A stretch of 64,000 bases of DNA from Escherichia phage phiP4. The position numbers and the translations under genes were made by a program. Of this stretch, positions 7,366-44,244 are shown one piece after another (within the stretch, counting starts at the first letter, position 1; each line of letters starts with the position of its first letter). Under the pieces are notes generated by a model, which saw only the letters and a list, made by a program, of their open reading frames with translations, was not told the DNA's origin and searched no databases. The stretch lies in the sequence record PP993145.1; one strand, written 5' to 3'.

Positions 7366-7633
7366 CCTCCCCACTACAATCACGACATACATCATAATCG
7401 TTGAAAGAACGTTCGTGGGCTTCACACCACCAAGAACAAGAATCACAGAGAAACATTTCGGTTTTCTCCAGTGCTTGACCTAAAAGATCATCAGCTTCCT
7501 CAGCAGTAATCTTCAATCCGCACACATCTGCCACACGTTCTTTAATTAAACGACCTGCTTCGTGGTAAGACATACAGGTTCCCGCAACATCATGTTCAAG
7601 AACATGAACAGCACAGTCTAGACGAGTTTTCAT
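7352..7633 (-). CDS. Cys-rich small protein (putative Zn-binding)
   Basis: 93 aa with CDSCSWWC and CRDC pairs. Confidence 0.4.
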   Translation of the reverse strand: MKTRLDCAVHVLEHDVAGTCMSYHEAGRLIKERVADVCGLKITAEEADDLLGQALEKTEMFLCDSCSWWCEAHERSFNDYDVCRDCSGEDEDE

Positions 7634-7709
7634 TTCAAACCTCTCTCATCAATTTATAAACATATTATAGCAAGAAAAGAGAGGTTTAGCAAATGAATTA
7701 TTTCAGAAT

Positions 7710-8057
7710 TTAGTCATAGCACCACCATAACCCACGTTTACGCATGTCATGATCGCGATTATAATCATAATTTTCTGGATCTTTCATCACGCGGTGGAGT
7801 TCTTGACGATTCCCTTGACGAACCATTTTATTAGAATGCCACTTAACATTCTTACTAATAGAATTCCAGTTATAACCATCCTTTTTCTCATTACGAATGG
7901 TTGCTTCCTTCATTTCTTTTTTGATGTCGTCCCAGGATTTGGCATAAATAACACGAATCCAGTAGCCATTTTCTTTGAGGAAAGAATATTCTTGAGAGAA
8001 TTGTTCTTTAGACTTCCACCACTGATCACCAGATTGTCTACGATAAGTACGGCTCAT
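7710..8057 (-). CDS. hypothetical protein
   Basis: 115-aa ORF. Confidence 0.4.
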   Translation of the reverse strand: MSRTYRRQSGDQWWKSKEQFSQEYSFLKENGYWIRVIYAKSWDDIKKEMKEATIRNEKKDGYNWNSISKNVKWHSNKMVRQGNRQELHRVMKDPENYDYNRDHDMRKRGLWWCYD

Positions 8058-8134
8058 ATTACCTCCATTAAGTCTTTTAAATTAACCTAATGTGGATGAA
8101 TTTTATTATACATATATTATGTACCTTTATACAG

Positions 8135-10948: not shown

Positions 10949-11185
10949 TTAGCTAGATGCTGTTTCTACTGGCTGAGAAACAGCAGGCTGTTCTAACGTA
11001 TCTGGTGCTGATACAGAGAAAAGAGCTTGTAATGCTGCAATATCACGCTCGTAAGTATCAATACGAGTAGTAAGAGTATCTACCATCTGTTTATGGTAGG
11101 ATAAGTTATTCTGAGATTCATCTCGAAGAGTTTGCAGTTCTGCAAGACGTGTTAACATAATTTCACTAATTAAAGCATTACTCAT
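10949..11185 (-). CDS. hypothetical coiled-coil protein
   Basis: 78-aa ORF. Confidence 0.35.
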   Translation of the reverse strand: MSNALISEIMLTRLAELQTLRDESQNNLSYHKQMVDTLTTRIDTYERDIAALQALFSVSAPDTLEQPAVSQPVETASS

Positions 11186-11375
11186 TTGTTTCTCCTAAGT
11201 TTTCCTGTTCTTCTAAACGTTTGCCTTCATGATCTACTCGAATAACTCCGCATCCTTCGCAAATCACAACTGCACCATAACCTTCTTTGACCTCAGCTTC
11301 TGTAATCAAACCAGAAAGATCACCAGTATCTCTGCCCCACATATCAATGGAGCATTGTTTGCAGAAATCAGCCAT
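11178..11375 (-). CDS. small Zn-ribbon-like protein
   Basis: 65 aa with CKQC ... CEGC cysteine pairs. Confidence 0.35.
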   Translation of the reverse strand: MADFCKQCSIDMWGRDTGDLSGLITEAEVKEGYGAVVICEGCGVIRVDHEGKRLEEQENLGETNE

Positions 11376-11400
11376 ATTTTATTTCCTATTTAAGTTAATT

Positions 11401-11477
11401 TGGGGTGGCTAGTGGAATTCGAATCCACATAGGCCTGATTCACAATCAGGATCATTAACCAATTATGATATAGCCAC
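11401..11477 (-). tRNA. tRNA-His (GUG)
   Basis: Acceptor GTGGCTA/TAGCCAC, discriminator C, anticodon arm CCTGA-TTGTGAA-TCAGG, T-arm GTGGA-TTCGAAT-TCCAC. Confidence 0.65.
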
Positions 11478-11704
11478 AATTGAAAACTCGCAGGGTTAGC
11501 GAAACCTTCCTCAATTAGCATGTTCTAGAATACTAATCAAGTTATCTCCTATTGCACGCAGCTCAAGACGAGTACGAATTTTCAATTGTGGCGGCTCTCA
11601 GAAACTCTTCTACTCTAGCTTTAGCAGCTTACTCCCGAACGCATGTCGGGGAAGTCTTACCAAGAGCATCAAATAGCACCGTTACACTTTGAGCCATAGA
11701 TGTA

Positions 11705-11800
11705 TCAAGAAGCAGAAGGATTTGAACCTTCACGAGATAGACCAGTTATCTCAGCCGCTTTATGAGGTATGTTGCAGGGAGTGGATGTTCCCTATAAACC
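11705..11800 (-). ncRNA. tRNA-like element, not foldable as a canonical tRNA
   Basis: Perfect T-arm GAAGG-TTCAAAT-CCTTC at 11716-11732 but no complementary 5' acceptor strand found within 100 nt; bounds are a guess. Confidence 0.25.
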
Positions 11801-12040
11801 TTTTAGGCAGCCCCGTCTACCGATTCCGGCATACTTCAAGAATTTTTTATAAACCAGCAGAAGCCTCATTTAAAGCATCAACAATAGCTTCACGTTGGGT
11901 CATTCCATACCCGGTGGAATCTAGGTGTGGCAAATAAGCCATCCATCCCTTATCTGTTTCATGAAGACATGCTTTAAATTTTTTACCATCCTTCATTGTT
12001 ACAGTAACTGTTTTGCTCATAAGATTTCCTTATAGTTAAT

Positions 12041-31333: not shown

Positions 31334-33664
31334 TTAAATAGTACAACCACCGGATGCACAACCTGCTGCTTCTTCTCCAGCACCTCCACCATTTGCAGTA
31401 TTGAAGTTAGCATAGTAGAAAGTTTTCCACCCATACTTAACAGCAGTCATGAAATCACGAACTACTACTGGGCCAGGAATGATTTCATTCTCAAACTTGG
31501 TGTAGTCATAGTACATATTCGTACTGATAGACTGGCTGAAGAATTTCTGCATAGTTGCTACCCACTTGATCCACTCGATACGATCTACATCATAAGCCAG
31601 TTTATAGCTCATTAACGTTTCCCAATCGGTTGCACCTGGAGCAATTGCAATTACTTTATTCACTGCACTACCCTTGATAGATACAATCTTACGAGGCGGT
31701 TCAATAGAGTTAGTAACACCTAACAGAACAGAAGAACTTTCTCCTGGCATCTGAGCAGTCAGAACAGAGTTACGCATACCATATTTCAGAATATCTGCAC
31801 GCAGAGACTCCCAATCCATTTCTAGACCTACGGATACCAGTTCATCAACAGTTTTCTTGTAAGTGTCGATTACCAGAATTCCTTTAGATGGTTTAGTACG
31901 ATCAAACCACTCACATGCACCCTGTTCTTTAGCTAGGCGTACAGAGGCTTTATGCAGAAAGTAAGACAGTTTTTCAGCCTCACGGTGAATCCAGTTACGG
32001 GCTTCAATACCTTCATAAGCCAGACCTTCTGCTGCCATTGCACCTGCTGCGTTCATCAGGCCAATACCAACATTACGACGTTTCTTAGCCGTATATTCCA
32101 TAGTTGGGAACGGATAATCCTGAATTTCAATAATTGTATCAACGAATTTCAGGAGGATGTAGCAAGTTTTTTCCCACTCAGCCAGAGATTCCATGCGTCC
32201 AAGTACAACACCACCTAAGTTACACAGAGATACTTCACCAATATCCTCCGGCTTCATTTGATCAAGCTGCTCTTTTGTCTTATACAGCTCTGTGATATGA
32301 TGGAACGGGCGTGTAGGCTGAGTAATTTCAACACAAAGGTTTGTCATACGGATCGGATCAAGGAAGTTACCGTGACGGTTAGATTCCCCGATGTGATGAG
32401 CGTACATACGTCCTGTTTCCATTCGGATACGTAGCCAAGTATCTAGGATTTCTTTTGCAGAGACTTTAGGAGCTGCAGGAACTGTTTTTCCTTCGTGGTC
32501 GATCTTTGTAAGAGATGCCACACGTTTCTCCGCTGCCACGTAGATTTCTTCAAATTTAGCCTCGTCATCACTATAAAACGCTTCATGAACTTCTGGAGCA
32601 TAGAAGTATGACATTAGCGTAATATCTTCGTTTTTAAGATAACGTTTTAACAAAAGATTGTTAAAGCTCAGAGAATAATCCATCTTATCGATTTTATTCT
32701 CATCTGTAGCACGTTGTTGCTTAACCTGCATCAATTGAATGATTTCAGGGTCGAAGTACGGATAAGACACTGTGGCAGAACCACCACGAGTTTGCTGAGT
32801 ATTGGCCTTTACTGAGCGGTCAATGTGTCGATAATATGGCAGTTTTCCGGAATGCGGGAATGCCCCATTTCGCACCGGATCAGCAATTGATCGGCTTTCA
32901 AGATGATACCCGATTCCCGCTCTGGCTGCGACCATTTTGAAGACGATGTGCTCGGCGGTGTCGATTGAATCCAACGTGTCAGTGGAATCCACGAGGCAGC
33001 AACTAGCAAATCCACGGTCACTAGAGCGCAGACCAACCAGTGGCGGCGTAGGAACGTTGATTTTGTGGAGTGACATTGCATTGTAGAGGTCGATTGCATC
33101 TAGAATTGTCCAGTTAGGTTGAGATAACATCGCCATTGCCATACCCATGTAGGCAAACTGCGGGGTTTCATAAATTTCACCAGTGGCTATGTTACGACGG
33201 GAATACTTATCAAAGAACTGTTTCAGCCCACCACTAGTAAAAAGACGGTCACGATCGTGGTCTATAACCTGATTCAGAGCTTCAAATTGCTCATCGGTAA
33301 TCCATGCACTCATGTCTTCCCATGCACCTACGCTAACCATATGGTCATGGAAGAAGCGTAGAGAGGGTGGTTCGAAAGAATCATAAAGGCGTTTACGCAT
33401 TTGCGCAAGACGTAATTCCTTTGCTGGCACATCGTATGCTGGATTATCTTTGATAAGACTTTCAGCAGCTTTAATTAATGCATCCATCAGAGTGTCGGAA
33501 TCTACAACCCCTTTAGGCAGAGTTTTTTGAGCAGCCATAGTAATGGCTGACCAACTTACATCAACTGTTTTGCAACCATACTCTGCCCAACCATTGAGTT
33601 TTTCAGGAGCAAAGTCTTCTACAGTACCGTCACGTTTAATTACTTTTTCAATGCGATGGCTCAT
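31334..33664 (-). CDS. nrdA: ribonucleotide reductase class I alpha subunit
   Basis: ATP-cone start MSHRIEKVIKRDG with RBS AAGGAAA; catalytic core including NLCVEI; upstream in-frame Met codons of the 811-aa ORF probably not used. Confidence 0.9.
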   Translation of the reverse strand: MSHRIEKVIKRDGTVEDFAPEKLNGWAEYGCKTVDVSWSAITMAAQKTLPKGVVDSDTLMDALIKAAESLIKDNPAYDVPAKELRLAQMRKRLYDSFEPPSLRFFHDHMVSVGAWEDMSAWITDEQFEALNQVIDHDRDRLFTSGGLKQFFDKYSRRNIATGEIYETPQFAYMGMAMAMLSQPNWTILDAIDLYNAMSLHKINVPTPPLVGLRSSDRGFASCCLVDSTDTLDSIDTAEHIVFKMVAARAGIGYHLESRSIADPVRNGAFPHSGKLPYYRHIDRSVKANTQQTRGGSATVSYPYFDPEIIQLMQVKQQRATDENKIDKMDYSLSFNNLLLKRYLKNEDITLMSYFYAPEVHEAFYSDDEAKFEEIYVAAEKRVASLTKIDHEGKTVPAAPKVSAKEILDTWLRIRMETGRMYAHHIGESNRHGNFLDPIRMTNLCVEITQPTRPFHHITELYKTKEQLDQMKPEDIGEVSLCNLGGVVLGRMESLAEWEKTCYILLKFVDTIIEIQDYPFPTMEYTAKKRRNVGIGLMNAAGAMAAEGLAYEGIEARNWIHREAEKLSYFLHKASVRLAKEQGACEWFDRTKPSKGILVIDTYKKTVDELVSVGLEMDWESLRADILKYGMRNSVLTAQMPGESSSVLLGVTNSIEPPRKIVSIKGSAVNKVIAIAPGATDWETLMSYKLAYDVDRIEWIKWVATMQKFFSQSISTNMYYDYTKFENEIIPGPVVVRDFMTAVKYGWKTFYYANFNTANGGGAGEEAAGCASGGCTI

Positions 33665-33806
33665 TTGGCTTTCCTTTTTATAGTTATCAGGATTTAAGGA
33701 ATATTCTACTTTATTATCGGTCATTAGGCAAATAAAATTTTCTGATAGAAAAGGCCCGAGTATTTTCATACCCAGGCCCTGTATATTACCAGTCTAGCTT
33801 TTTAGC

Positions 33807-34028
33807 TTATTCAATTACTTTAGCTCTAGCTACTTCTTTTAATAGAATATCTATGGAGGTGCTCAGCTCGTTATAGTTGAATGGTTTATTTGGATTTGAG
33901 GTTACAATTTTCCACGCTAGGGTTGTCTTAGGACTTTCTTCCCCTTCCTTACGTGTAATCATATTAGCAGCACTCAGTGAAGTACGATGTATTTTAGTTT
34001 TACGGCTCAGATGAACGACGTTTCCCAT
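33807..34028 (-). CDS. hypothetical protein
   Basis: Trimmed to Met overlapping phoH stop (ATG/TAA overlap). Confidence 0.3.
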   Translation of the reverse strand: MGNVVHLSRKTKIHRTSLSAANMITRKEGEESPKTTLAWKIVTSNPNKPFNYNELSTSIDILLKEVARAKVIE

Positions 34029-34029
34029 A

Positions 34030-34791
34030 TTACACCTTCCCCATGTCTTTAAAAATATCATAGAATGCTTTAGACTCAACAGAACGAACGTTATCAATCA
34101 ATTCGATCATTGAGAATGGGGCATTTTCGTATTTTTCATAGACTTCCATAAGGAGTGCTAGACCTGAGTCACCTTTAATGTCTTTCTGAGCTATATCTCC
34201 GCAGATAATTAAACGGCAGTCTTGTCCTACACGAGTTAGGAGACAAATCATTGCCTCAACGGAAATATTCTGAGCTTCATCGACAATTACATAGGAGTTG
34301 TTGAAAGTTCTGCCACGAGCATGTTCGATAGCCAAAAATTTAATTTTCTGACGTTCGACATATCCTTTATATGCATGATCGCCGATGGCCCATTTCATAC
34401 CATCAGCTATTGGCTCCAACCAAGGCTCTAGCTTTTCCGCTAGATCACCAGGAAGCATACCAAGAGACTTACCTAGAGGTTCATTAGGACGTACGAGAAT
34501 CACTTGCTCAATATCTGAGTGAATGTCTACGAGTTCCTGAGCTGCAAGAACGGACGGAATAAAGGTTTTACCAGTACCTGGCTCGCCGATACCCACAGTC
34601 ACTGTGTTGTTCTTGATCATATTGATATATGATTTTTGCTCGCGGTTTTTACCTACTAGGGATTTAGCAACTGGGTTAGCGTAATCATTAGAAAAATCAG
34701 CCTGAATTACGTTGTTCTCATATTTGTTGCCACGCTTTCTTGAACCATTGCGGTTCTCTCTTTTTTGACGTGCTTTTCCCATAAATAACAC
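34030..34791 (-). CDS. phoH: PhoH-like ATPase
   Basis: 253 aa; Walker A GEPGTGKTF and DEAQN Walker B. Confidence 0.85.
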   Translation of the reverse strand: MLFMGKARQKRENRNGSRKRGNKYENNVIQADFSNDYANPVAKSLVGKNREQKSYINMIKNNTVTVGIGEPGTGKTFIPSVLAAQELVDIHSDIEQVILVRPNEPLGKSLGMLPGDLAEKLEPWLEPIADGMKWAIGDHAYKGYVERQKIKFLAIEHARGRTFNNSYVIVDEAQNISVEAMICLLTRVGQDCRLIICGDIAQKDIKGDSGLALLMEVYEKYENAPFSMIELIDNVRSVESKAFYDIFKDMGKV

Positions 34792-35069
34792 TCCTATAGT
34801 GTACTTCGCTAACAGAGGATCAACAAAAAGATCTTGTTTATCAACTTACAAATATATTATACCAATATATACAGTAAAAAGCAACTACAATTTTAAATAA
34901 GCCTATGATATTGCATTTAAATAAAAAATTTGCTTGCTTTTAACGTGAGATGTGTGATACTAGATAATCATTTTATATCGCGTGCACGAGTGCGTGATTA
35001 TACAATTTTTAATAGAGATTGGCAAATAAAATTTTTTGACTCAGATCATGTTACAGAACTTTATAGTAA

Positions 35070-35110
35070 AATATTGTTGACATCCGCCCTCGAATGAGTT
35101 ATAATAGTAG
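35070..35110 (+). promoter_or_regulatory. sigma70-type promoter for nrdD
   Basis: TTGACA (35077-35082), 17-bp spacer, TATAAT (35100-35105). Confidence 0.55.
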
Positions 35111-35134
35111 TCTTAGTTAGAGAAGGAGAGTATA

Positions 35135-37009
35135 ATGAATCGCAATGAAGAACTAAAGTATAAAGAAATGCAGGCGTTAATTAGAAACTGCAAAGAGATT
35201 ATCGAAGGGTCAGCAGATGAAGAGCTGCTGTTTAATAATGCTAATAAACCCTCAGAACGTTTCCCTACACAAAGGGATATGCTTGCAGGTGAGTTGAGTA
35301 AGTATCTGATTCTAGAAGAAATGCCAATTCAGATTCGAAATGCTCATATGATTGGGGATATTCATTTCCATGATGCTGATTATGCTGCATTAGGCATGAC
35401 TAACTGTTGCCTGGTAGCTCTGGAAGATATGTTAAAGAATGGTATGAAGGTTGGTAATGCTGAAATTAGCACTCCAAACTCTATCACTACTGCGGCGGCT
35501 ATCACTGCTCAGATTATCACTCAAGTTAGCTCCCATCAGTATGGTGGTACTTCTGTAGATCGCCTTGATGAAGTATTAGCCCCTTATGTTCGTAAATCCT
35601 ATGACAAAAATCATGCGTTTGCAAAACGTTGGACTAAGGATGAAGCCAAAGCATCTGTAATGGCTACGGAGATGACTGAAAAAGAAGTCTATGACGCTTG
35701 TCAGGGTTTAGAATATGAAATCAATACCATGTTTAACTCTAATGGTCAGAGTCCATTTATTACCTTTGGTTTTGGTCTAGGAACTTCCTGGGAAGCACGT
35801 CTAGTACAGAAAGCAATACTGAAAGTACGCATGGATGGTTTAGGTATCAATAAACGTACAGCTATCTTCCCAAAACTGGTATTTGTACTTCGTGATGGCG
35901 TAAATATGAAACCAGGAGATGTTAATTATGACATCAAGAAGTTAGCTATGAAATGTACTGCTGAACGTATGTATCCAGATTATATCAGCTATGACAAAGT
36001 TGTAGAAGTTACTGGAGACTACAAAGTTTCTATGGGCTGCCGTTCATTCCTAGCTGCTACAGAAGATGGTGAAACTGCCGGTCGTAATAACTTAGGTGTT
36101 GTTTCTGTAAACTTGCCTAGAATTGCTATCGAAGCTGAAGGAAATATTGACCTATTCTTTGATTTGCTTGAGCTACGTGTGGATACAGCATTAAAAGCGT
36201 TGGAGTGGAGAGTTGATCGCTTAAAATATATCCAAGCTAAAGCTGCACCCATCCTCTATATGTCAGGAGCTTTTGGGTTACGCTTGGAGCCTGATGAATA
36301 TGTATTCGATCATTTCTATAACCGTGCTTCTGTATCCCTAGGGTATATTGGTTGCCATGAAATGCTACAGTTCATGTTTGGCAAAGATGTAGACACAATG
36401 TCCGAGACCTGCATCAAGTTTGTTCAGCGTGTATTGCAGTACATGCGAGATAGGGTAGATCAGAAGAAGGAAGAAACTAAGTTAGGTTATAGCCTATATG
36501 CTACACCATCGGAATCCCTATGCGATCGTTTTTGTCGTCTAGACCGTGAGTATTTCCCGGAGCATGAAGATATTCTGTCCAAAGGATACTACACTAACTC
36601 GCACCACCTTGATGTAGAACGTAAAGTTGCTCCTAACGTCAAATTTGATTATGAATCTAACTTTACTCCGATTGCTTCTGGTGGGTGCATTTCCTATGTA
36701 GAACTACCAGATATGAAACGATTCCCAGATGCACTGGAATGGGTTATTAATTATGCCGCTAGTAAAGTTCATTACTTCGGTATCAATACTCCAGTGGATT
36801 CTTGTGGTAAATGTGGATTCTTAGGTGAAACAATAGCATCCGAGGATGGATTTAAGTGCCCTATCTGTGGTAATCATGACCCCGAAACTCTTGAAGTAAC
36901 TCGTCGAGTTTGTGGGTATCTTGGAAATCCGGGTGCTCGTCCCTTTAACCCCGGCAAACAGCACGAGGTGATGGGCAGAGTGAAACATCAGGATATTCGA
37001 GCTAAATAA
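35135..37009 (+). CDS. nrdD: anaerobic ribonucleotide reductase class III
   Basis: 624 aa; C-terminal glycyl radical motif RVCGYLG and Cys-rich Zn site. Confidence 0.9.
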   Translation: MNRNEELKYKEMQALIRNCKEIIEGSADEELLFNNANKPSERFPTQRDMLAGELSKYLILEEMPIQIRNAHMIGDIHFHDADYAALGMTNCCLVALEDMLKNGMKVGNAEISTPNSITTAAAITAQIITQVSSHQYGGTSVDRLDEVLAPYVRKSYDKNHAFAKRWTKDEAKASVMATEMTEKEVYDACQGLEYEINTMFNSNGQSPFITFGFGLGTSWEARLVQKAILKVRMDGLGINKRTAIFPKLVFVLRDGVNMKPGDVNYDIKKLAMKCTAERMYPDYISYDKVVEVTGDYKVSMGCRSFLAATEDGETAGRNNLGVVSVNLPRIAIEAEGNIDLFFDLLELRVDTALKALEWRVDRLKYIQAKAAPILYMSGAFGLRLEPDEYVFDHFYNRASVSLGYIGCHEMLQFMFGKDVDTMSETCIKFVQRVLQYMRDRVDQKKEETKLGYSLYATPSESLCDRFCRLDREYFPEHEDILSKGYYTNSHHLDVERKVAPNVKFDYESNFTPIASGGCISYVELPDMKRFPDALEWVINYAASKVHYFGINTPVDSCGKCGFLGETIASEDGFKCPICGNHDPETLEVTRRVCGYLGNPGARPFNPGKQHEVMGRVKHQDIRAK

Positions 37010-39845: not shown

Positions 39846-39875
39846 TTTTTATTAGCTCAACTCTGATTACCGAGT

Positions 39876-39906
39876 CATTTTGGCTCGGTTTTATCCGTAC
39901 TCAAGA
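39876..39906 (+). terminator. rho-independent terminator
   Basis: Hairpin accgag-tcattttgg-ctcggt followed by TTTTAT. Confidence 0.5.
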
Positions 39907-39929
39907 CCAATGATAGCACCATCCGGAAA

Positions 39930-39972
39930 ATTTTACTTGCAGGATGCCCAAAATCTTGATATAATATTTATA
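39930..39972 (+). promoter_or_regulatory. early promoter
   Basis: TTGCAG (39937-39942), 17-bp spacer, TATAAT (39960-39965). Confidence 0.5.
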
Positions 39973-39974
39973 TT

Positions 39975-40464
39975 GAATTGAGAGACATTAGTAAAAATTG
40001 ATTTTGCTAATTTTTCTTGTTTACAATCCGCGATACGGAACAGTTAGGCTGCCCCATTAAGGGTTGTTTTAACTGTTACGTGTTAGTTTTTAAACAAATA
40101 GTTAATAGAATACTTAGCGATCTACATCCCGTAGGAACCCTGGTAAGGCCTCGAAGCAACCTAGTGTGAGGTGGTTGTGAAGTGAGACGGGAGGAGTGAA
40201 AAACTCCGAGAAGTGATGACGTAAGGTATACTGCATCTAGTATGAGCTAGTACATGAAGCATTAGGTGAGCAAATCTGGCTTAGCGGCCATCCTCAAGGA
40301 TTTGTGCGGTATAGTGAAGCGGCAGTGTAGCGTGAAAGTGGAAGTTGCCACCCCACTTCAGTATTTGCAATTAATTTGTTGAGAAATTGACAGTAACAGT
40401 TGTTCTATTCTTTCTGAATAGTCCTAAAGAAAACTTATTTCATTTCCAACACAGGAGTATTGTT
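39975..40464 (+). other. long ORF-free leader with repeated GTGAAG-like motifs (candidate origin/iteron array or structured 5' UTR)
   Basis: About 490 nt without an ORF of 60 aa or more on either strand; purine-rich, GC-richer than surroundings; repeated (A)GTGAAG / GTGAAA units. Confidence 0.4.
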
Positions 40465-43254
40465 GTGTTCTCAATCCTACAAGGTCATGCAGGATTTCAT
40501 CGCGACTTAGCCACAGGCATTTGGCGAGAAGTTAAAGCAGAAGACTATCTTTTTGCTAAAAGATTTTCCTCAAAGCATCCTGAAGGTAAACCAGCTTCAA
40601 TGCCCTTCAAGTTTGATGTAATTGATGAAGTTGATCCTCAAACCCTAGTAGAAATGCTCCCTCTTATGAGACGTTTAACGTCTGACCCTCATATCGTTGC
40701 GGTACGAGGTCGATGTCTTGCACCTAAAAATAATGTGCGACGTAAGAAGGGCAACTTTAATGTATCTAATCCAAGTCATATAATTGCAATGGATGTGGAT
40801 GGTATTGTAGATACAGGTGGTTGTAACAAGTTTGATCTTGTTGGCATGGCTCGACATATTATTAGAATGTTAAATAGTATTAGTGAGGATATGTTTCCTC
40901 TTGATGCAGGGTTTATCGCTCATGCATCGTCTTCGGCTGGGCTAAAACCAGGTATCCGAATGCACTTAATACTAGAATCTAATGTTAAGGTAACTCAGGG
41001 TCAAATCAAGTTCTTATTTACATCTATCAACGAAAGTAGTAGACAAAAGTATGGCTTTGATATTGCCGACTTAGCTTATTACTCTTCCGTACAGCTCCAT
41101 TATTTCGCAGATCCGTTATTTACTGATGGTATAGTAGATCCGTTTAAAGCGGAGGGTGCTTCACGTCTGGTATTTGTTAAGGGTTCTAAAGTAAATTTAC
41201 CAAATAATCTGGTTGACTATGAAACAACTAGAGGTGAGTTTAAGGAGGAGTTTTACTCTTTACTCGATCAAATTAAAGGTAAAAAAGCTGCCTCTGATAA
41301 AGTAGAGGAAACTATCAGCGAACTAGAAGAAGCTGAGGATGGAGTGTATCTACGTATCATACCTAAACTCTATCACAGAGCTTTAGAGGATGGTGTTGAT
41401 TTTGCATGGCTAGAAAAAGAAATCCGTCCAGCCTTATCAGAATATATTGCAACTAAAGATAATAGTCGTAATATTCAAGATTACTTTAATAATGGTCGTA
41501 AACAGGCTCTGAAGGCGTTTGTTAATAATTCTAAACGCGATATACCTGATGTTTTAAAAGGTATTCCACTTAAAAAGCTAGAAACTAATTCTCTAGAAAC
41601 TGATAACTTCTTGAAATTAAATACTGTACCACCAGAAGGTTATATGACTTTTGTAAAAGCAAGTCTAGGTACAGGTAAAACTACGGCGGTTGTGCGTTGG
41701 TTAGATTCAGGAGTTATTAAAGGTAATTTCTTAGCAATTACCAACACTCGAGCACTGGTATCTTCAAATGCTAAGAAATTTAGTGCAGGACAATATGATA
41801 AGTCTGTAGATATGCTTAATTTTAAGCGTGGCGCTATTGACCGTATGTCCACAACTATTCACTCTTTGCATAAGTTCAAGAGTTTTATTGGTCAAATTGA
41901 TGCAATCTTTATCGATGAATGTGATGCTGTAATGAATGACCTATTATTCGCCCCGGTTGTTAAACAACGTCGTGAATGTATTCAGGTTCTTCGGGATATT
42001 CTTGCAACTGCAAAAATTATTATATTATCTGATGGGGATATTAGTGCAGAAACAATTGAAGCATATGGTTCTTTGATTGAGTTCGATAAACCGGTTGCAT
42101 TTTATAATCATCACCGTAAAATGCTATCAAAAGCTCATGCTTATGAGTTCCCGGATGAATCCAGTATTTGGGTTGCACTTCAGACTTCTCTAGAAATGGG
42201 TGAGAAATCTATTCTGGTATCTGATTGTGGTCCTGATGAACTGAATGAGAAGGGTATGGCACTGCGTCGTAATACGGGTGCATTAGTTAAGGAAATCCAC
42301 TCAAACTCTACGTCTGATGTAGATATTCGACGTATTCTGGATTACACAACTAATGAGCTAATTGACCAACAAATTGATTGCTTATTATGTAGTCCATCCG
42401 TAACGAGTGGTGTTGACTTCAACTACTTTGATAACGTATTCGTTATTACTAGAACTAGTAATCAAGCGCCAAACATGCGTTTCCAAGCAATCAGGCGCGA
42501 CCGTGGCGCTCAGAACATTTATTATTTTATTGATAAATCTACTAGTGGATTCTCTGCAGGTTCTGAACAATATAACATTGATGAAGGTTGGCTGGAGTTA
42601 GCACAGCAATTATACGCACGTCGTAGGGAGCTGGAGTCTAGGAACTATACTAGTACTTTACGTTATTACTTGCTTGATCAGGGTGCAACTATTGATATTT
42701 TCAGTGAAAGCTGGGGAACTATCGAAGGTGCAGGAAAAGAGTATACGGAAGAGCGAATCAAAGCTATTTTGTATTCAACTCCTGATTATTGTGCTCCACG
42801 CCATGCAGATGCGTATGAAGCTAAACTACTTCTTGTTCGCTATTATCATCTTGAGTCTATTAAAGATGTAACAGTTGAGCACGTTGAACAATATATCAAG
42901 GATAAACCGAATGATCGAGCGGCATTCTTCCATAAAATGCACGAGATGTTCTGGGAAGATATTAAGAAGTGTTCAAATGTCACTATCAAACCATTCATAG
43001 AAGCTCTGAAAGGTAAGAAGAAAGATTTCTTCCTTAAAACAGGCCAGAGTGCTAACCCAAAATATGCAAGAATGTATCTTGGTATGATGGGTATTGGTAA
43101 GGATATGAACACGGAGAATATTGTAGACTGGTACAGAACCTATTGTAAAATCGAGTGTATGCCAATCCCGTATAAGTTTATGACTGATGAGGAGAAACAT
43201 ATGCATGATGAAGCAATGGCAGAGCTAGGTGCTAGAAATGACAGTGAAGAATAA
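40465..43254 (+). CDS. putative replication origin-binding helicase with N-terminal primase-polymerase-like region
   Basis: GTG start after AGGAG (in frame with the 40387 ORF); Walker A SLGTGKTT, Walker B IFIDECD; N-terminal IIAMDVDG and SSAGLKPGIRMHLIL resemble AEP prim-pol motifs I/II. Confidence 0.55.
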   Translation: MFSILQGHAGFHRDLATGIWREVKAEDYLFAKRFSSKHPEGKPASMPFKFDVIDEVDPQTLVEMLPLMRRLTSDPHIVAVRGRCLAPKNNVRRKKGNFNVSNPSHIIAMDVDGIVDTGGCNKFDLVGMARHIIRMLNSISEDMFPLDAGFIAHASSSAGLKPGIRMHLILESNVKVTQGQIKFLFTSINESSRQKYGFDIADLAYYSSVQLHYFADPLFTDGIVDPFKAEGASRLVFVKGSKVNLPNNLVDYETTRGEFKEEFYSLLDQIKGKKAASDKVEETISELEEAEDGVYLRIIPKLYHRALEDGVDFAWLEKEIRPALSEYIATKDNSRNIQDYFNNGRKQALKAFVNNSKRDIPDVLKGIPLKKLETNSLETDNFLKLNTVPPEGYMTFVKASLGTGKTTAVVRWLDSGVIKGNFLAITNTRALVSSNAKKFSAGQYDKSVDMLNFKRGAIDRMSTTIHSLHKFKSFIGQIDAIFIDECDAVMNDLLFAPVVKQRRECIQVLRDILATAKIIILSDGDISAETIEAYGSLIEFDKPVAFYNHHRKMLSKAHAYEFPDESSIWVALQTSLEMGEKSILVSDCGPDELNEKGMALRRNTGALVKEIHSNSTSDVDIRRILDYTTNELIDQQIDCLLCSPSVTSGVDFNYFDNVFVITRTSNQAPNMRFQAIRRDRGAQNIYYFIDKSTSGFSAGSEQYNIDEGWLELAQQLYARRRELESRNYTSTLRYYLLDQGATIDIFSESWGTIEGAGKEYTEERIKAILYSTPDYCAPRHADAYEAKLLLVRYYHLESIKDVTVEHVEQYIKDKPNDRAAFFHKMHEMFWEDIKKCSNVTIKPFIEALKGKKKDFFLKTGQSANPKYARMYLGMMGIGKDMNTENIVDWYRTYCKIECMPIPYKFMTDEEKHMHDEAMAELGARNDSEE

Positions 43255-43539: not shown

Positions 43540-44244
43540 ATGGCTGGTTCTCGTAGAAAGAAACACATTCATGAAATCCCGGATGAGGTCTTTAAAAAGG
43601 TTATAGAGCATCTGGAGAACGGGGGCACTAAGAAAGCAGCATGTGAAATGCTCGGCGTATCATCCAATCCAACTATGGAAAGGATGATTGAAGAATGGCA
43701 AGACCGCCAGATTCAAGTTGCCGAAATGAAGAAAAAGAAACGTGGCACACTTATTGAGGGCATCGAGTTAGCTAACGTTATTGAGCAGTATTTATCTGGT
43801 GATTCTTTCGAAGAAATTGCCGATCGTAATTACCGCTCTGTAGCAATGGTTAAATCTGTTCTGGAACGATATGGTGCTCTACTTCGTTTGAACGATATTG
43901 TAGATCCATTGAATCCCCCAATTATTCCTGATGATGCTGTAGCAGAAGAATTTGCAGTTGGTGAGCTTGTTTGGGTTCCTGGATACCAGTGTATCGGTGA
44001 AATCAAAAAAGCAATGGATAATCCTGTTGGTTGTTACCGTGTATGGCTTCTATCGGAAGGCAAACAACAGAACGTCCATTATATGAATTACGAGCTGGCC
44101 TCTGTTAAACATCTGGAAAAGCTAGGGGTTGACGTAAAGTCTCTGGGATATAAATGGACTCGTGAAGAAATTATTACGTTGATTAACGAAGCTGTTAAGG
44201 CTGCCCTGAAACTTGATAAAGAAAAAGGAAAACGCCGTGAGTAG
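43540..44244 (+). CDS. HTH DNA-binding protein
   Basis: 234 aa; N-terminal helix-turn-helix-like segment GGTKKAACEMLGVSSNPTMER; first gene downstream of the PN25-like promoter. Confidence 0.45.
   Translation: MAGSRRKKHIHEIPDEVFKKVIEHLENGGTKKAACEMLGVSSNPTMERMIEEWQDRQIQVAEMKKKKRGTLIEGIELANVIEQYLSGDSFEEIADRNYRSVAMVKSVLERYGALLRLNDIVDPLNPPIIPDDAVAEEFAVGELVWVPGYQCIGEIKKAMDNPVGCYRVWLLSEGKQQNVHYMNYELASVKHLEKLGVDVKSLGYKWTREEIITLINEAVKAALKLDKEKGKRRE

What the first reader, a model, noticed from the sequence alone, without database searches (positions are those of the whole stretch)
39846..43254. Iteron-like ORF-free leader upstream of a large prim-pol/helicase-like protein: candidate replication origin module
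About 500 nt contain no ORF of 60 aa or more on either strand, which is rare in this otherwise tightly packed genome. The stretch is purine- and GC-rich and carries repeated GTGAAG-like units. It sits between a promoter (39930-39972) and a 929-aa protein with Walker A/B ATPase motifs and an N-terminal region resembling AEP primase-polymerase motifs. Iterons next to an initiator helicase is the layout of the phage P4 alpha/ori system and of herpesvirus UL9-type origin-binding proteins. This genome also encodes separate DnaG-like primase and DnaB-like helicase, so this would be a second initiator system.
Basis: partly seen in the sequence, partly recalled or inferred. Interest (0 to 1): 0.7.

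Follow-up and report, generated by a model that had tools for sequence, protein, structure and literature searches.

The report
Large structured leader RNA before T5 D2
The gene-free stretch in front of the phage T5 D2 primase-helicase gene holds no origin-type repeats; it encodes a roughly 400-nt folded RNA, conserved across T5-like phages and matching no known RNA family, whose function is still unknown.

Summary
The window is a T5-like phage. The gap at 39846-40464 is real: it is the longest stretch without an ORF of 60 aa or more outside the tRNA cluster. The iteron reading fails, because no 8-mer occurs twice, GTGAAG occurs only twice, and the GTGA bias is absent from the T5 version of the region.

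A conserved extended -10 promoter (39937-39965) transcribes a leader of about 495 nt for the D2 gene (GTG 40465). About 390 nt of that leader form a conserved multi-helix RNA:
- two 5' hairpins;
- a 30-40-bp long-range stalk;
- a purine-rich core of about 260 nt with an invariant UUAGCG hexaloop;
- a terminal hairpin.

Covariation is strong: 42 of 66 pairs show compensatory changes, and 89.7% of cells pair against 38-46% in slid controls. It favours the + strand. Rfam has no match.

The element is single-copy. A long gene-free leader lies upstream of nearly all D2 homologues examined. Its core comes in at least two ancient sequence classes that are exchanged between lineages.

The protein claim holds. 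D2 combines an N-terminal AEP primase-polymerase fold with a UL9-like SF2 helicase.

The RNA's function is inferred only. Candidates are a processed stable RNA, a leader that controls D2 expression, or an origin transcript.

The parts
39869..39894 (+). Terminator hairpin plus T-run that ends the upstream operon (ACCGAGTCA...TGGCTCGGT TTT)
   Evidence: Inverted repeat I11. Annotated as a terminator at the equivalent place in T5 and Lindwurm.
39937..39965 (+). Early promoter: -35 TTGCAG (39937-42), extended -10 TG (39957-58), -10 TATAAT (39960-65). The transcription start is inferred at about 39970-39972.
   Evidence: Sequence. The stretch is invariant in five relatives. T5 record promoter feature. 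The covarying hairpin SL1 lies downstream of it, so transcripts must start upstream of 39982.
39970..40464 (+). 5' leader of the D2 mRNA, about 495 nt, with no conserved ORF
39982..40016 (+). SL1, the 5' hairpin (GAGACAUUAGUAAAA / UUUUGCUAAUUUUUC)
   Evidence: Helix 1: 7 of 13 pairs have changes on both sides.
40032..40058 (+). Hairpin presenting the near-invariant sequence ACGGAACAGUUAGGCUGCCCC (40035-40055)
   Evidence: Helix 2, 99% paired, with G-C to A-U changes. The motif occurs once per T5-like contig and nowhere else above chance.
40066..40105 (+). 5' arm of the AU-rich long-range stalk
   Evidence: Pairs with 40366-40402. Every class has 36-52 bp, dG -30 to -44 kcal/mol. AACUGUUAC/GUAACAGUU changes from G-C through G-U to A-U.
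40106..40365 (+). Purine-rich multi-junction core of about 260 nt. This is the segment that exists as divergent 'W' and 'T' classes.
   Evidence: Only 48-58% identical to T5 while the flanks are 85-100% identical. Helices 4-11 covary.
40270..40305 (+). Two-part helix capped by a 3-bp stem and the invariant hexaloop UUAGCG (40281-40286)
   Evidence: The stem and the outer helix covary in 12 or more lineages.
40338..40356 (+). Hairpin GUGG/CCAC with the conserved loop AAGUUGCCACC
   Evidence: Helix 11. A U-A to G-C swap is seen in the near-identical L026. A similar motif is present in Vibrio phage locus L047.
40366..40402 (+). 3' arm of the long-range stalk
40405..40421 (+). Small terminal hairpin CUAUUC-UUUCU-GAAUAG, with no U-tract after it
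   Evidence: Equivalent hairpins with different sequences are seen in other classes.
40453..40457 (+). Shine-Dalgarno sequence AGGAG for D2
40465..43254 (+). D2 gene, 929 aa: AEP primase-polymerase fold (about aa 1-250), helical bundle (about aa 260-360), UL9-like SF2 helicase (about aa 385-700), helical C-terminal region

Best explanation
The ORF-free stretch is the template for a large, conserved, structured RNA that forms most of the 5' leader of the mRNA for the T5 D2 primase-helicase.

Shown:
- A conserved promoter and a leader of about 495 nt.
- About 390 nt fold into at least 11 helices that are kept by compensatory changes on the + strand.
- A stalk of 30-40 bp closes a core of about 260 nt that carries near-invariant loops (ACRGAACRGUYNGGCYGC, UUAGCG, GUUGCCAC).
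- There is one copy per genome. A long gene-free leader lies upstream of nearly all D2 homologues examined, and the RNA's motifs can be traced in most of them.
- Rfam has no match.
- The core exists in at least two ancient sequence classes with one architecture, and these move between lineages by recombination.

Inferred:
- The RNA is made with the early D2 transcript.
- The stalk, which resembles an rRNA processing stalk, is a likely RNase III site. Cleavage there would separate the folded core from the D2 message.
- The core then acts as a stable RNA linked to D2 and replication initiation, or the leader sets expression of the D2 operon.

My split, given that the RNA is real: processed stable RNA or leader control about 0.55, origin transcript about 0.2, RNA cofactor of D2 about 0.12, other about 0.13.
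For: - Divergent centre between near-identical flanks.
- Long gene-free gaps upstream of D2 homologues of 33-100% identity.
- RNAalifold predicts 66 pairs, 42 of them with compensatory changes.
- 89.7% of cells pair against 38-46% in slid controls. The covariation score is 0.462 against 0.085-0.120 in slid controls. None of 500 shuffles reaches the observed values.
- G.U 100 cells against A.C 18, and the + strand folds with more pairs than the - strand.
- The stalk is present in every class.
- The UUAGCG hairpin covaries in 12 or more lineages.
- A covariance model built only from W-class sequences finds T-class RNAs full-length at the homologous position.
- The motif is restricted to T5-like contigs.
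- No conserved ORF. No Rfam hit.
Against: - No transcript data were available, so the start site, the processing and the stability of the RNA are all inferred.
- Folding of the single window sequence is not exceptional (z -1.6).
- The cross-class evidence from the covariance model is weak (E 0.017-0.06), and other classes were not retrieved.
- The consensus structure was derived from the same alignment on which the pairs were counted.
- One clade with D2 at about 51% identity has an AT-rich upstream region with no recognisable RNA.
- Nothing computed here separates the candidate functions.
Confidence: 0.78

Rival explanations
1. Transcription-activated origin. The leader transcript forms a persistent RNA-DNA hybrid or is processed into a primer, as in ColE1 RNA II or the T4 R-loop origins. 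D2 (primase plus helicase) then opens and primes there.
For: - A strong early promoter lies directly upstream of the presumed initiator gene.
- The non-template strand is G- and purine-rich in all classes.
- The arms flanking the core are AT-rich.
- The locus sits near the middle of the T5 genome, at 59.5 of 121.75 kb.
- T5 origins have not been mapped at sequence level.
- ColE1 RNA II is also a large structured RNA (own knowledge).
Against: - The GC-skew minimum is at about 34 kb, not 40 kb, and is confounded with gene orientation.
- Extensive self-pairing of the RNA competes with hybrid formation.
- No origin has been mapped here.
Confidence: 0.2
2. Double-stranded iteron origin bound by D2, as in P4 alpha/ori or UL9/OriS.
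For: UL9-like helicase with an AEP domain next to a long non-coding stretch. Distant D2-like loci carry long direct repeats upstream.
Against: - No repeated 8-mer, no repeat family, and no UL9, P4 or DnaA boxes.
- The central sequence is unalignable between phages whose D2 proteins are about 93% identical.
- What is conserved is strand-specific pairing.
Confidence: 0.04
3. Single-stranded DNA structure: an ssi-like priming signal or an OriS*-like hairpin form, recognised by the D2 primase or helicase once the + strand is exposed.
For: Covariation cannot by itself tell RNA from ssDNA of the same strand. D2 unwinds DNA in both directions (PMC3632103).
Against: - 14% of paired cells are G.U (G.T in DNA), which are weak in DNA.
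- The element always lies just downstream of a promoter, in the sense of D2.
- Its size and complexity exceed those of known ssi signals (own knowledge).
Confidence: 0.06
4. A highly divergent RNase P-like ribozyme that serves the phage's many tRNAs.
For: Short local resemblances to RNase P conserved regions (GGAACAGUYNGGCUG compared with GGAAAGUCCGGGCU; GGCUUAGCGG compared with GGCUUAUCGG; AAGAG and AAUAGG motifs in the same order). There are 22 tRNA genes in the window.
Against: - No RNase P model matches, even at E up to 10.
- Both 'P4 strands' are local hairpins with covarying stems, not partners of a long-range pseudoknot.
- The overall order of helices differs from that of RNase P.
Confidence: 0.02
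5. The gap hides small protein genes, or D2 starts upstream at TTG 40387.
For: An in-frame TTG lies at 40387. Some automatic annotations place small ORFs here.
Against: - All six frames are full of stops, and no ORF is shared between classes.
- The N-terminus MFSIL, preceded by a Shine-Dalgarno sequence, is conserved in homologues that start with ATG, GTG or TTG at the same position.
- Protein cloned from this start was active as a helicase.
Confidence: 0.02

Closest known systems
Large structured bacterial and phage RNAs of unknown function (GOLLD, ROOL, OLE, raiA)
   Same: Several hundred nucleotides, many covarying helices, conserved loops, phage-borne (GOLLD and ROOL), and no assigned function when first found.
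   Different: No Rfam model matches. This RNA is tied to one gene, D2, and lies in that gene's leader. It is restricted to T5-like phages.
rRNA and phage early-mRNA processing stalks cut by RNase III
   Same: A long-range duplex of 30-40 bp, formed by the sequences on either side, encloses a folded RNA.
   Different: Cleavage was not tested. The stalk is AU-rich and interrupted.
ColE1 RNA II and the T4 R-loop origins
   Same: A promoter-driven structured transcript next to replication functions, with a G-rich RNA strand.
   Different: No mapped origin, no antisense promoter found, no sequence similarity.
Retron ncRNA plus reverse transcriptase
   Same: An ncRNA closed by long flanking inverted repeats lies directly upstream of, and is co-transcribed with, a polymerase-family gene.
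   Different: The enzyme is an AEP-SF2 fusion and not a reverse transcriptase. There are no retron hits and no evidence of templated synthesis.
HSV-1 UL9 and AEP-helicase initiators (P4 alpha, pRN1 ORF904, vaccinia D5)
   Same: D2 shares the UL9-type SF2 helicase and an AEP fold with a helical bundle. AEP fusions to UL9-like helicases have been noted before (PMC5862659).
   Different: In herpesviruses the primase and UL9 are separate proteins. P4, pRN1 and D5 use SF3 helicases. No origin boxes lie next to D2.

Membership tests
Iteron-type replication origin | Three or more direct repeats of about 17-22 bp | tested here: not met
   No repeat family above chance, no tandem repeat, and no 8-mer present twice.
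Iteron-type replication origin | Repeat motif conserved in relatives | tested here: not met
   GTGA occurs 8 times in the window and 2 times in the T5 allele. The centres are unalignable.
Iteron-type replication origin | Initiator binds the site and replication starts there | not testable with these tools
   Needs footprinting and origin mapping.
UL9/OriS-type origin | UL9 box (CGTTCGCACTT) flanking an AT-rich palindrome | tested here: not met
   No match with up to 1 mismatch.
UL9-like SF2 helicase (Pfam PF02399) | Profile match above the curated cut-off, with Walker A and Walker B | tested here: met
   29.2 bits against a cut-off of 20, over aa 394-533. G402/K405/T406 and D484/E485 are invariant. 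K405E was used as a Walker A mutant.
UL9-like SF2 helicase (Pfam PF02399) | Fold closest to UL9 | tested here: met
   Foldseek top four hits are 9hgi/9hgj, E 3.5e-15 to 2.4e-13, about 560-610 aligned columns.
AEP primase-polymerase superfamily (D2 N-terminus) | AEP catalytic fold | tested here: met
AEP primase-polymerase superfamily (D2 N-terminus) | Motif I DxD and motif II sxH invariant | tested here: met
   D110, D112, S155, S157, G159 and H167 are invariant in 24 homologues.
AEP primase-polymerase superfamily (D2 N-terminus) | Sequence-profile match to a curated AEP family or to a solved AEP | tested here: not met
   No AEP family in Pfam at E up to 1. No PDB hit with the N-terminal profile.
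AEP primase-polymerase superfamily (D2 N-terminus) | Primer synthesis activity | not testable with these tools
   Only helicase activity has been published (PMC3632103).
Any Rfam 15 family, including RNase P, GOLLD, ROOL, riboswitches and ribozymes | Covariance-model match | tested here: not met
   Only tRNAs reach the gathering score. Nothing relevant appears at E up to 10 in the window or in ten relatives.
RNase P RNA | P4 pseudoknot between the CR-I and CR-V strands | tested here: not met
   Both candidate strands form local covarying hairpins, unlike the consensus.
Riboswitch or translational operator | Expression platform coupled to the ribosome-binding site or to a terminator | tested here: not met
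   The distance to the start codon varies from 65 to about 330 nt. A small ORF is inserted in L078. There is no U-tract terminator.
RNase III processing stalk | Duplex of 20 bp or more formed by the flanking sequences | tested here: met
   36-52 bp in ten lineages.
RNase III processing stalk | Cleavage in vivo | not testable with these tools
   Needs Northern blots or end mapping in rnc+ and rnc- hosts.
Retron | Adjacent reverse transcriptase | tested here: not met
   The downstream gene is an AEP-SF2 fusion.

The most novel reading that the evidence does not exclude
The RNA is a dedicated partner of the D2 AEP-SF2 initiator: a primer, template or guide that directs where or how T5 replication starts. 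The layout mirrors retrons, with a stem-closed ncRNA directly upstream of, and co-transcribed with, a polymerase-family gene. That would make it an RNA-dependent replication-initiation particle in a classic phage.
Probability: 0.12. Interest if true: 0.9.

Novelty: new variant of a known kind. Interest (0 to 1): 0.68.

Why it matters
T5 is a classic model phage, yet its origins and its initiation mechanism are unmapped. Large, complex RNAs kept over this much evolution are rare, and they have repeatedly turned out to be ribozymes, ribonucleoprotein scaffolds or regulators.

This one is short enough to probe and sits in a phage that can be manipulated genetically. It has natural swap variants: two classes on near-identical genetic backgrounds. 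It is also physically tied to the presumed initiator gene. Its function, and possibly how T5 replication starts, can therefore be tested directly.

The work also shows that D2, published as a helicase, carries an AEP primase-polymerase fold.

Tried and rejected
- **Iterons and tandem repeats:** none.
- **Known RNA families:** none.
- **RNase P-like idea:** it arose from motif resemblance. I rejected it on the covariance models and on the two covarying local hairpins.
- **Small ORFs or an upstream D2 start:** rejected.
- **GC skew as a pointer to the origin:** the minimum is at about 34 kb, at the divergent promoters.
- **Alternative pairing of AACAGUU with AACUGUU as a switch:** not conserved, because there is a C.A mismatch in the other classes.
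- **Weak hairpin plus U-run at 40051-40069 as an attenuator:** not conserved.
- **MAFFT alignment across classes:** poor for the T-class set and for the 3' domain.
- **Covariance model R1:** it did not retrieve the more distant classes.
- **Metagenome scan:** only 10 loci.
- **Bacterial genome scan:** hits at the chance level, 35 observed against about 35 expected.
- **Sequence profile of the D2 N-terminus against the PDB:** nothing.
- **Literature:** no description of this RNA. The 1976 origin-mapping paper is not held.
- **Co-variation of RNA class with the D2 5' end:** none seen in three comparisons.
Full report
**Identity of the window and the locus.** The region matches 523 T5-like phage records at 80-99% identity. 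The window carries the T5-type cluster of 22 tRNA genes. The 929-aa ORF (GTG 40465 to 43254) is annotated as 'putative replication origin binding protein' (T5.108). It is the protein characterised as the bipolar SF2 helicase 'D2', cloned from this same start, with K405 in the Walker A motif (PMC3632103). The T5 record AY543070 gives the name D2 to a different, 234-aa gene.

**Check of the observation.**
- The stretch 39846-40386 has no ORF of 60 aa or more on either strand. It is the second-longest such gap in 64 kb. The others are tRNA genes or the divergent promoter region.
- GC reaches 0.45-0.50 with GC skew +0.3 to +0.4 in 40100-40350, and the core is 57% purine.
- The promoter is TTGCAG (39937-42), 17 nt, TATAAT (39960-65), with an extended -10 TG. 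It is invariant in five relatives and annotated in T5. The simple promoter scan missed it because of its weak -35.
- The 'GTGAAG-like repeats' do not stand. GTGAAG occurs twice. There are no repeat families or tandem repeats. No 8-mer is present twice, and there are no UL9, P4 or DnaA boxes.
- GTGA is enriched in this allele (8 copies, P about 0.002), but the T5 allele has only 2.

**What is there.** Many relatives, T5 included, match only the two ends of the gap.
- Alignment shows near-identical flanks around a centre of about 300 nt. That centre has the same length in the different phages but is unalignable.
- Window against T5 is 85-100% identical outside 40064-40363 and 48-58% identical inside it.
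- Locus L014 carries the window-type centre at 90-98% identity, while its upstream genes are only 58-79% identical. The centre therefore behaves as an exchangeable cassette.
- Nearly every D2 homologue examined, from 100% down to 33% identity, has a gene-free stretch of 370-880 nt upstream.

**Evidence for a structured RNA.**
- Each class folds into the same plan.
- An 11-sequence alignment that adds Klebsiella, Pectobacterium and metagenomic relatives gives 66 consensus pairs, 42 of them with compensatory changes.
- On that structure 89.7% of cells pair, against 38-46% when the partners are slid. The covariation score is 0.462 against 0.085-0.120 in slid controls. None of 500 shuffles reaches the observed values.
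- G.U cells outnumber A.C cells 100 to 18. The + strand alignment folds with 66 pairs and the - strand with 34. The folded strand is therefore the sense strand of D2.
- Near-identical genomes show paired swaps: CUACAU/GUGUAG against CUGCGU/GCGCAG, and GUGG/CCAC against GGGG/CCCC.
- The hairpin with the invariant UUAGCG hexaloop keeps its 3-bp stem (GGC/GCC, GCC/GGC, GAC/GUC, UGC/GCA, AGC/GCU) and a 7-9-bp outer helix in 12 or more lineages, with unrelated sequences.
- A second near-invariant sequence, ACRGAACRGUYNGGCYGC, sits in a hairpin whose stem also covaries.
- A long-range stalk of 36-52 bp (dG -30 to -44 kcal/mol) closes the core in all ten lineages tested.
- A covariance model built from window-class sequences alone finds the window once (148 bits). 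It also finds T5-class RNAs full-length at the homologous position, though weakly (E 0.017 and 0.062).
- Vibrio T5-like loci share several of the motifs.
- All six frames are full of stop codons, and no ORF is shared between classes.
- Folding of the single window sequence is unremarkable (z -1.6), so the case rests on the comparative data.

**Distribution and novelty.**
- Rfam 15 gives nothing but tRNAs, even at E up to 10 in the window and in ten relatives.
- The hairpin motif occurs in 32 IMG/VR contigs, all T5-like, once in each.
- In 596 Gb of bacterial and archaeal genomes it occurs 35 times, which is the number expected by chance.
- Four literature searches found no description of this RNA.

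**The RNase P lead.** Several motifs resemble RNase P conserved regions and appear in the same order. However, no RNase P model matches. The two would-be P4 strands are local covarying hairpins, and the helix order differs from the consensus. I reject this reading.

**The protein.**
- Pfam Herpes_ori_bp matches aa 394-533 above its cut-off.
- The full model (pLDDT 86.7) is closest to HSV-1 UL9, with E 3.5e-15.
- D110, D112, S155, S157, G159 and H167 are invariant.
- Curated sequence profiles do not detect the AEP domain.
- Fusions of AEP domains to UL9-like helicases have been noted before (PMC5862659).
- T5 also has a DnaB-like helicase (D6) and a separate primase.

**Mechanism.**
- *Shown:* the promoter, the leader, the fold, its strand, and its linkage to D2.
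- *Inferred:* co-transcription with D2, cutting at the stalk by RNase III, and a role tied to D2.
- The distance from the RNA to the start codon varies from 65 to about 330 nt. One lineage has a small ORF in between, and there is no terminator. This argues against a classical riboswitch or an operator that acts on the ribosome-binding site.
- An origin transcript remains possible. T5 origins are unmapped, and the locus is close to the middle of the genome. However, the GC-skew minimum lies at about 34 kb, at the divergent promoters.
- RNA class does not track the D2 5' end in three comparisons.

**Verdict.** This is a real and unusual feature whose nature was misread. It is a new family of large structured leader RNA, not an iteron origin. 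The protein reading was right.

Noticed in passing
window 40465-41214 (D2 aa 1-250): D2 was published only as a helicase. It has an AEP primase-polymerase fold with an invariant DxD and S..H, followed by a pRN1-like helical bundle.
   Followed up: yes
L085 (T5 AY543070) 11123-11827; window 43540-44244: Naming clash. The T5 record calls a 234-aa downstream protein 'D2', while the helicase paper uses 'D2' for the 929-aa protein.
   Followed up: partly
L051:732-913 and 1133-1275; L057:855-1105: The most distant D2-like loci (33% identity) carry long direct repeats upstream: 78 nt twice, 38 nt twice at a spacing of about 105 nt, and 42 nt twice. These could be true iteron-like modules or duplicated RNA units.
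   Followed up: partly
L039:1132-1500, L040, L048, L061: A clade with D2 at about 51% identity has an AT-rich upstream region and no recognisable structured RNA. In L039 the neighbouring gene is divergently oriented.
   Followed up: no
L004 (Shivani) 1002-1454; L001 (Lindwurm) 7622-8080; L085 10319-10837: HNH homing-endonuclease genes are inserted next to this locus in several relatives. That may explain why the RNA core is exchanged between lineages.
   Followed up: no
L078:1082-1252 and L080: In L078 a 56-aa ORF lies between the RNA and D2. L080 has a similar extra insert there, although no gene was called in it. L034 has about 130 extra nt there.
   Followed up: partly
L032/L033/L075 upstream region: This class has a UUAGCG-type hairpin in the 5' part and a UUAGCC variant near the 3' end, in a longer leader of about 800 nt. 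The domains may be rearranged or duplicated.
   Followed up: no
window 40114-40119: The window class has a second UUAGCG, but its flanks do not form the hairpin stem.
   Followed up: partly
L026:1011-1060: One otherwise window-type phage has a different sequence in place of the 5' hairpin SL1.
   Followed up: no
window 33000-35200: The cumulative GC-skew minimum coincides with the switch from - strand to + strand genes and with an ORF-free promoter region at 34792-35134.
   Followed up: partly
L045, L047, L052, L053 upstream of D2: Leaders of Vibrio T5-like phages are about 600 nt or longer. Three of them (L045, L052, L053) share their own motif, GUGACUAACCAA.
   Followed up: partly
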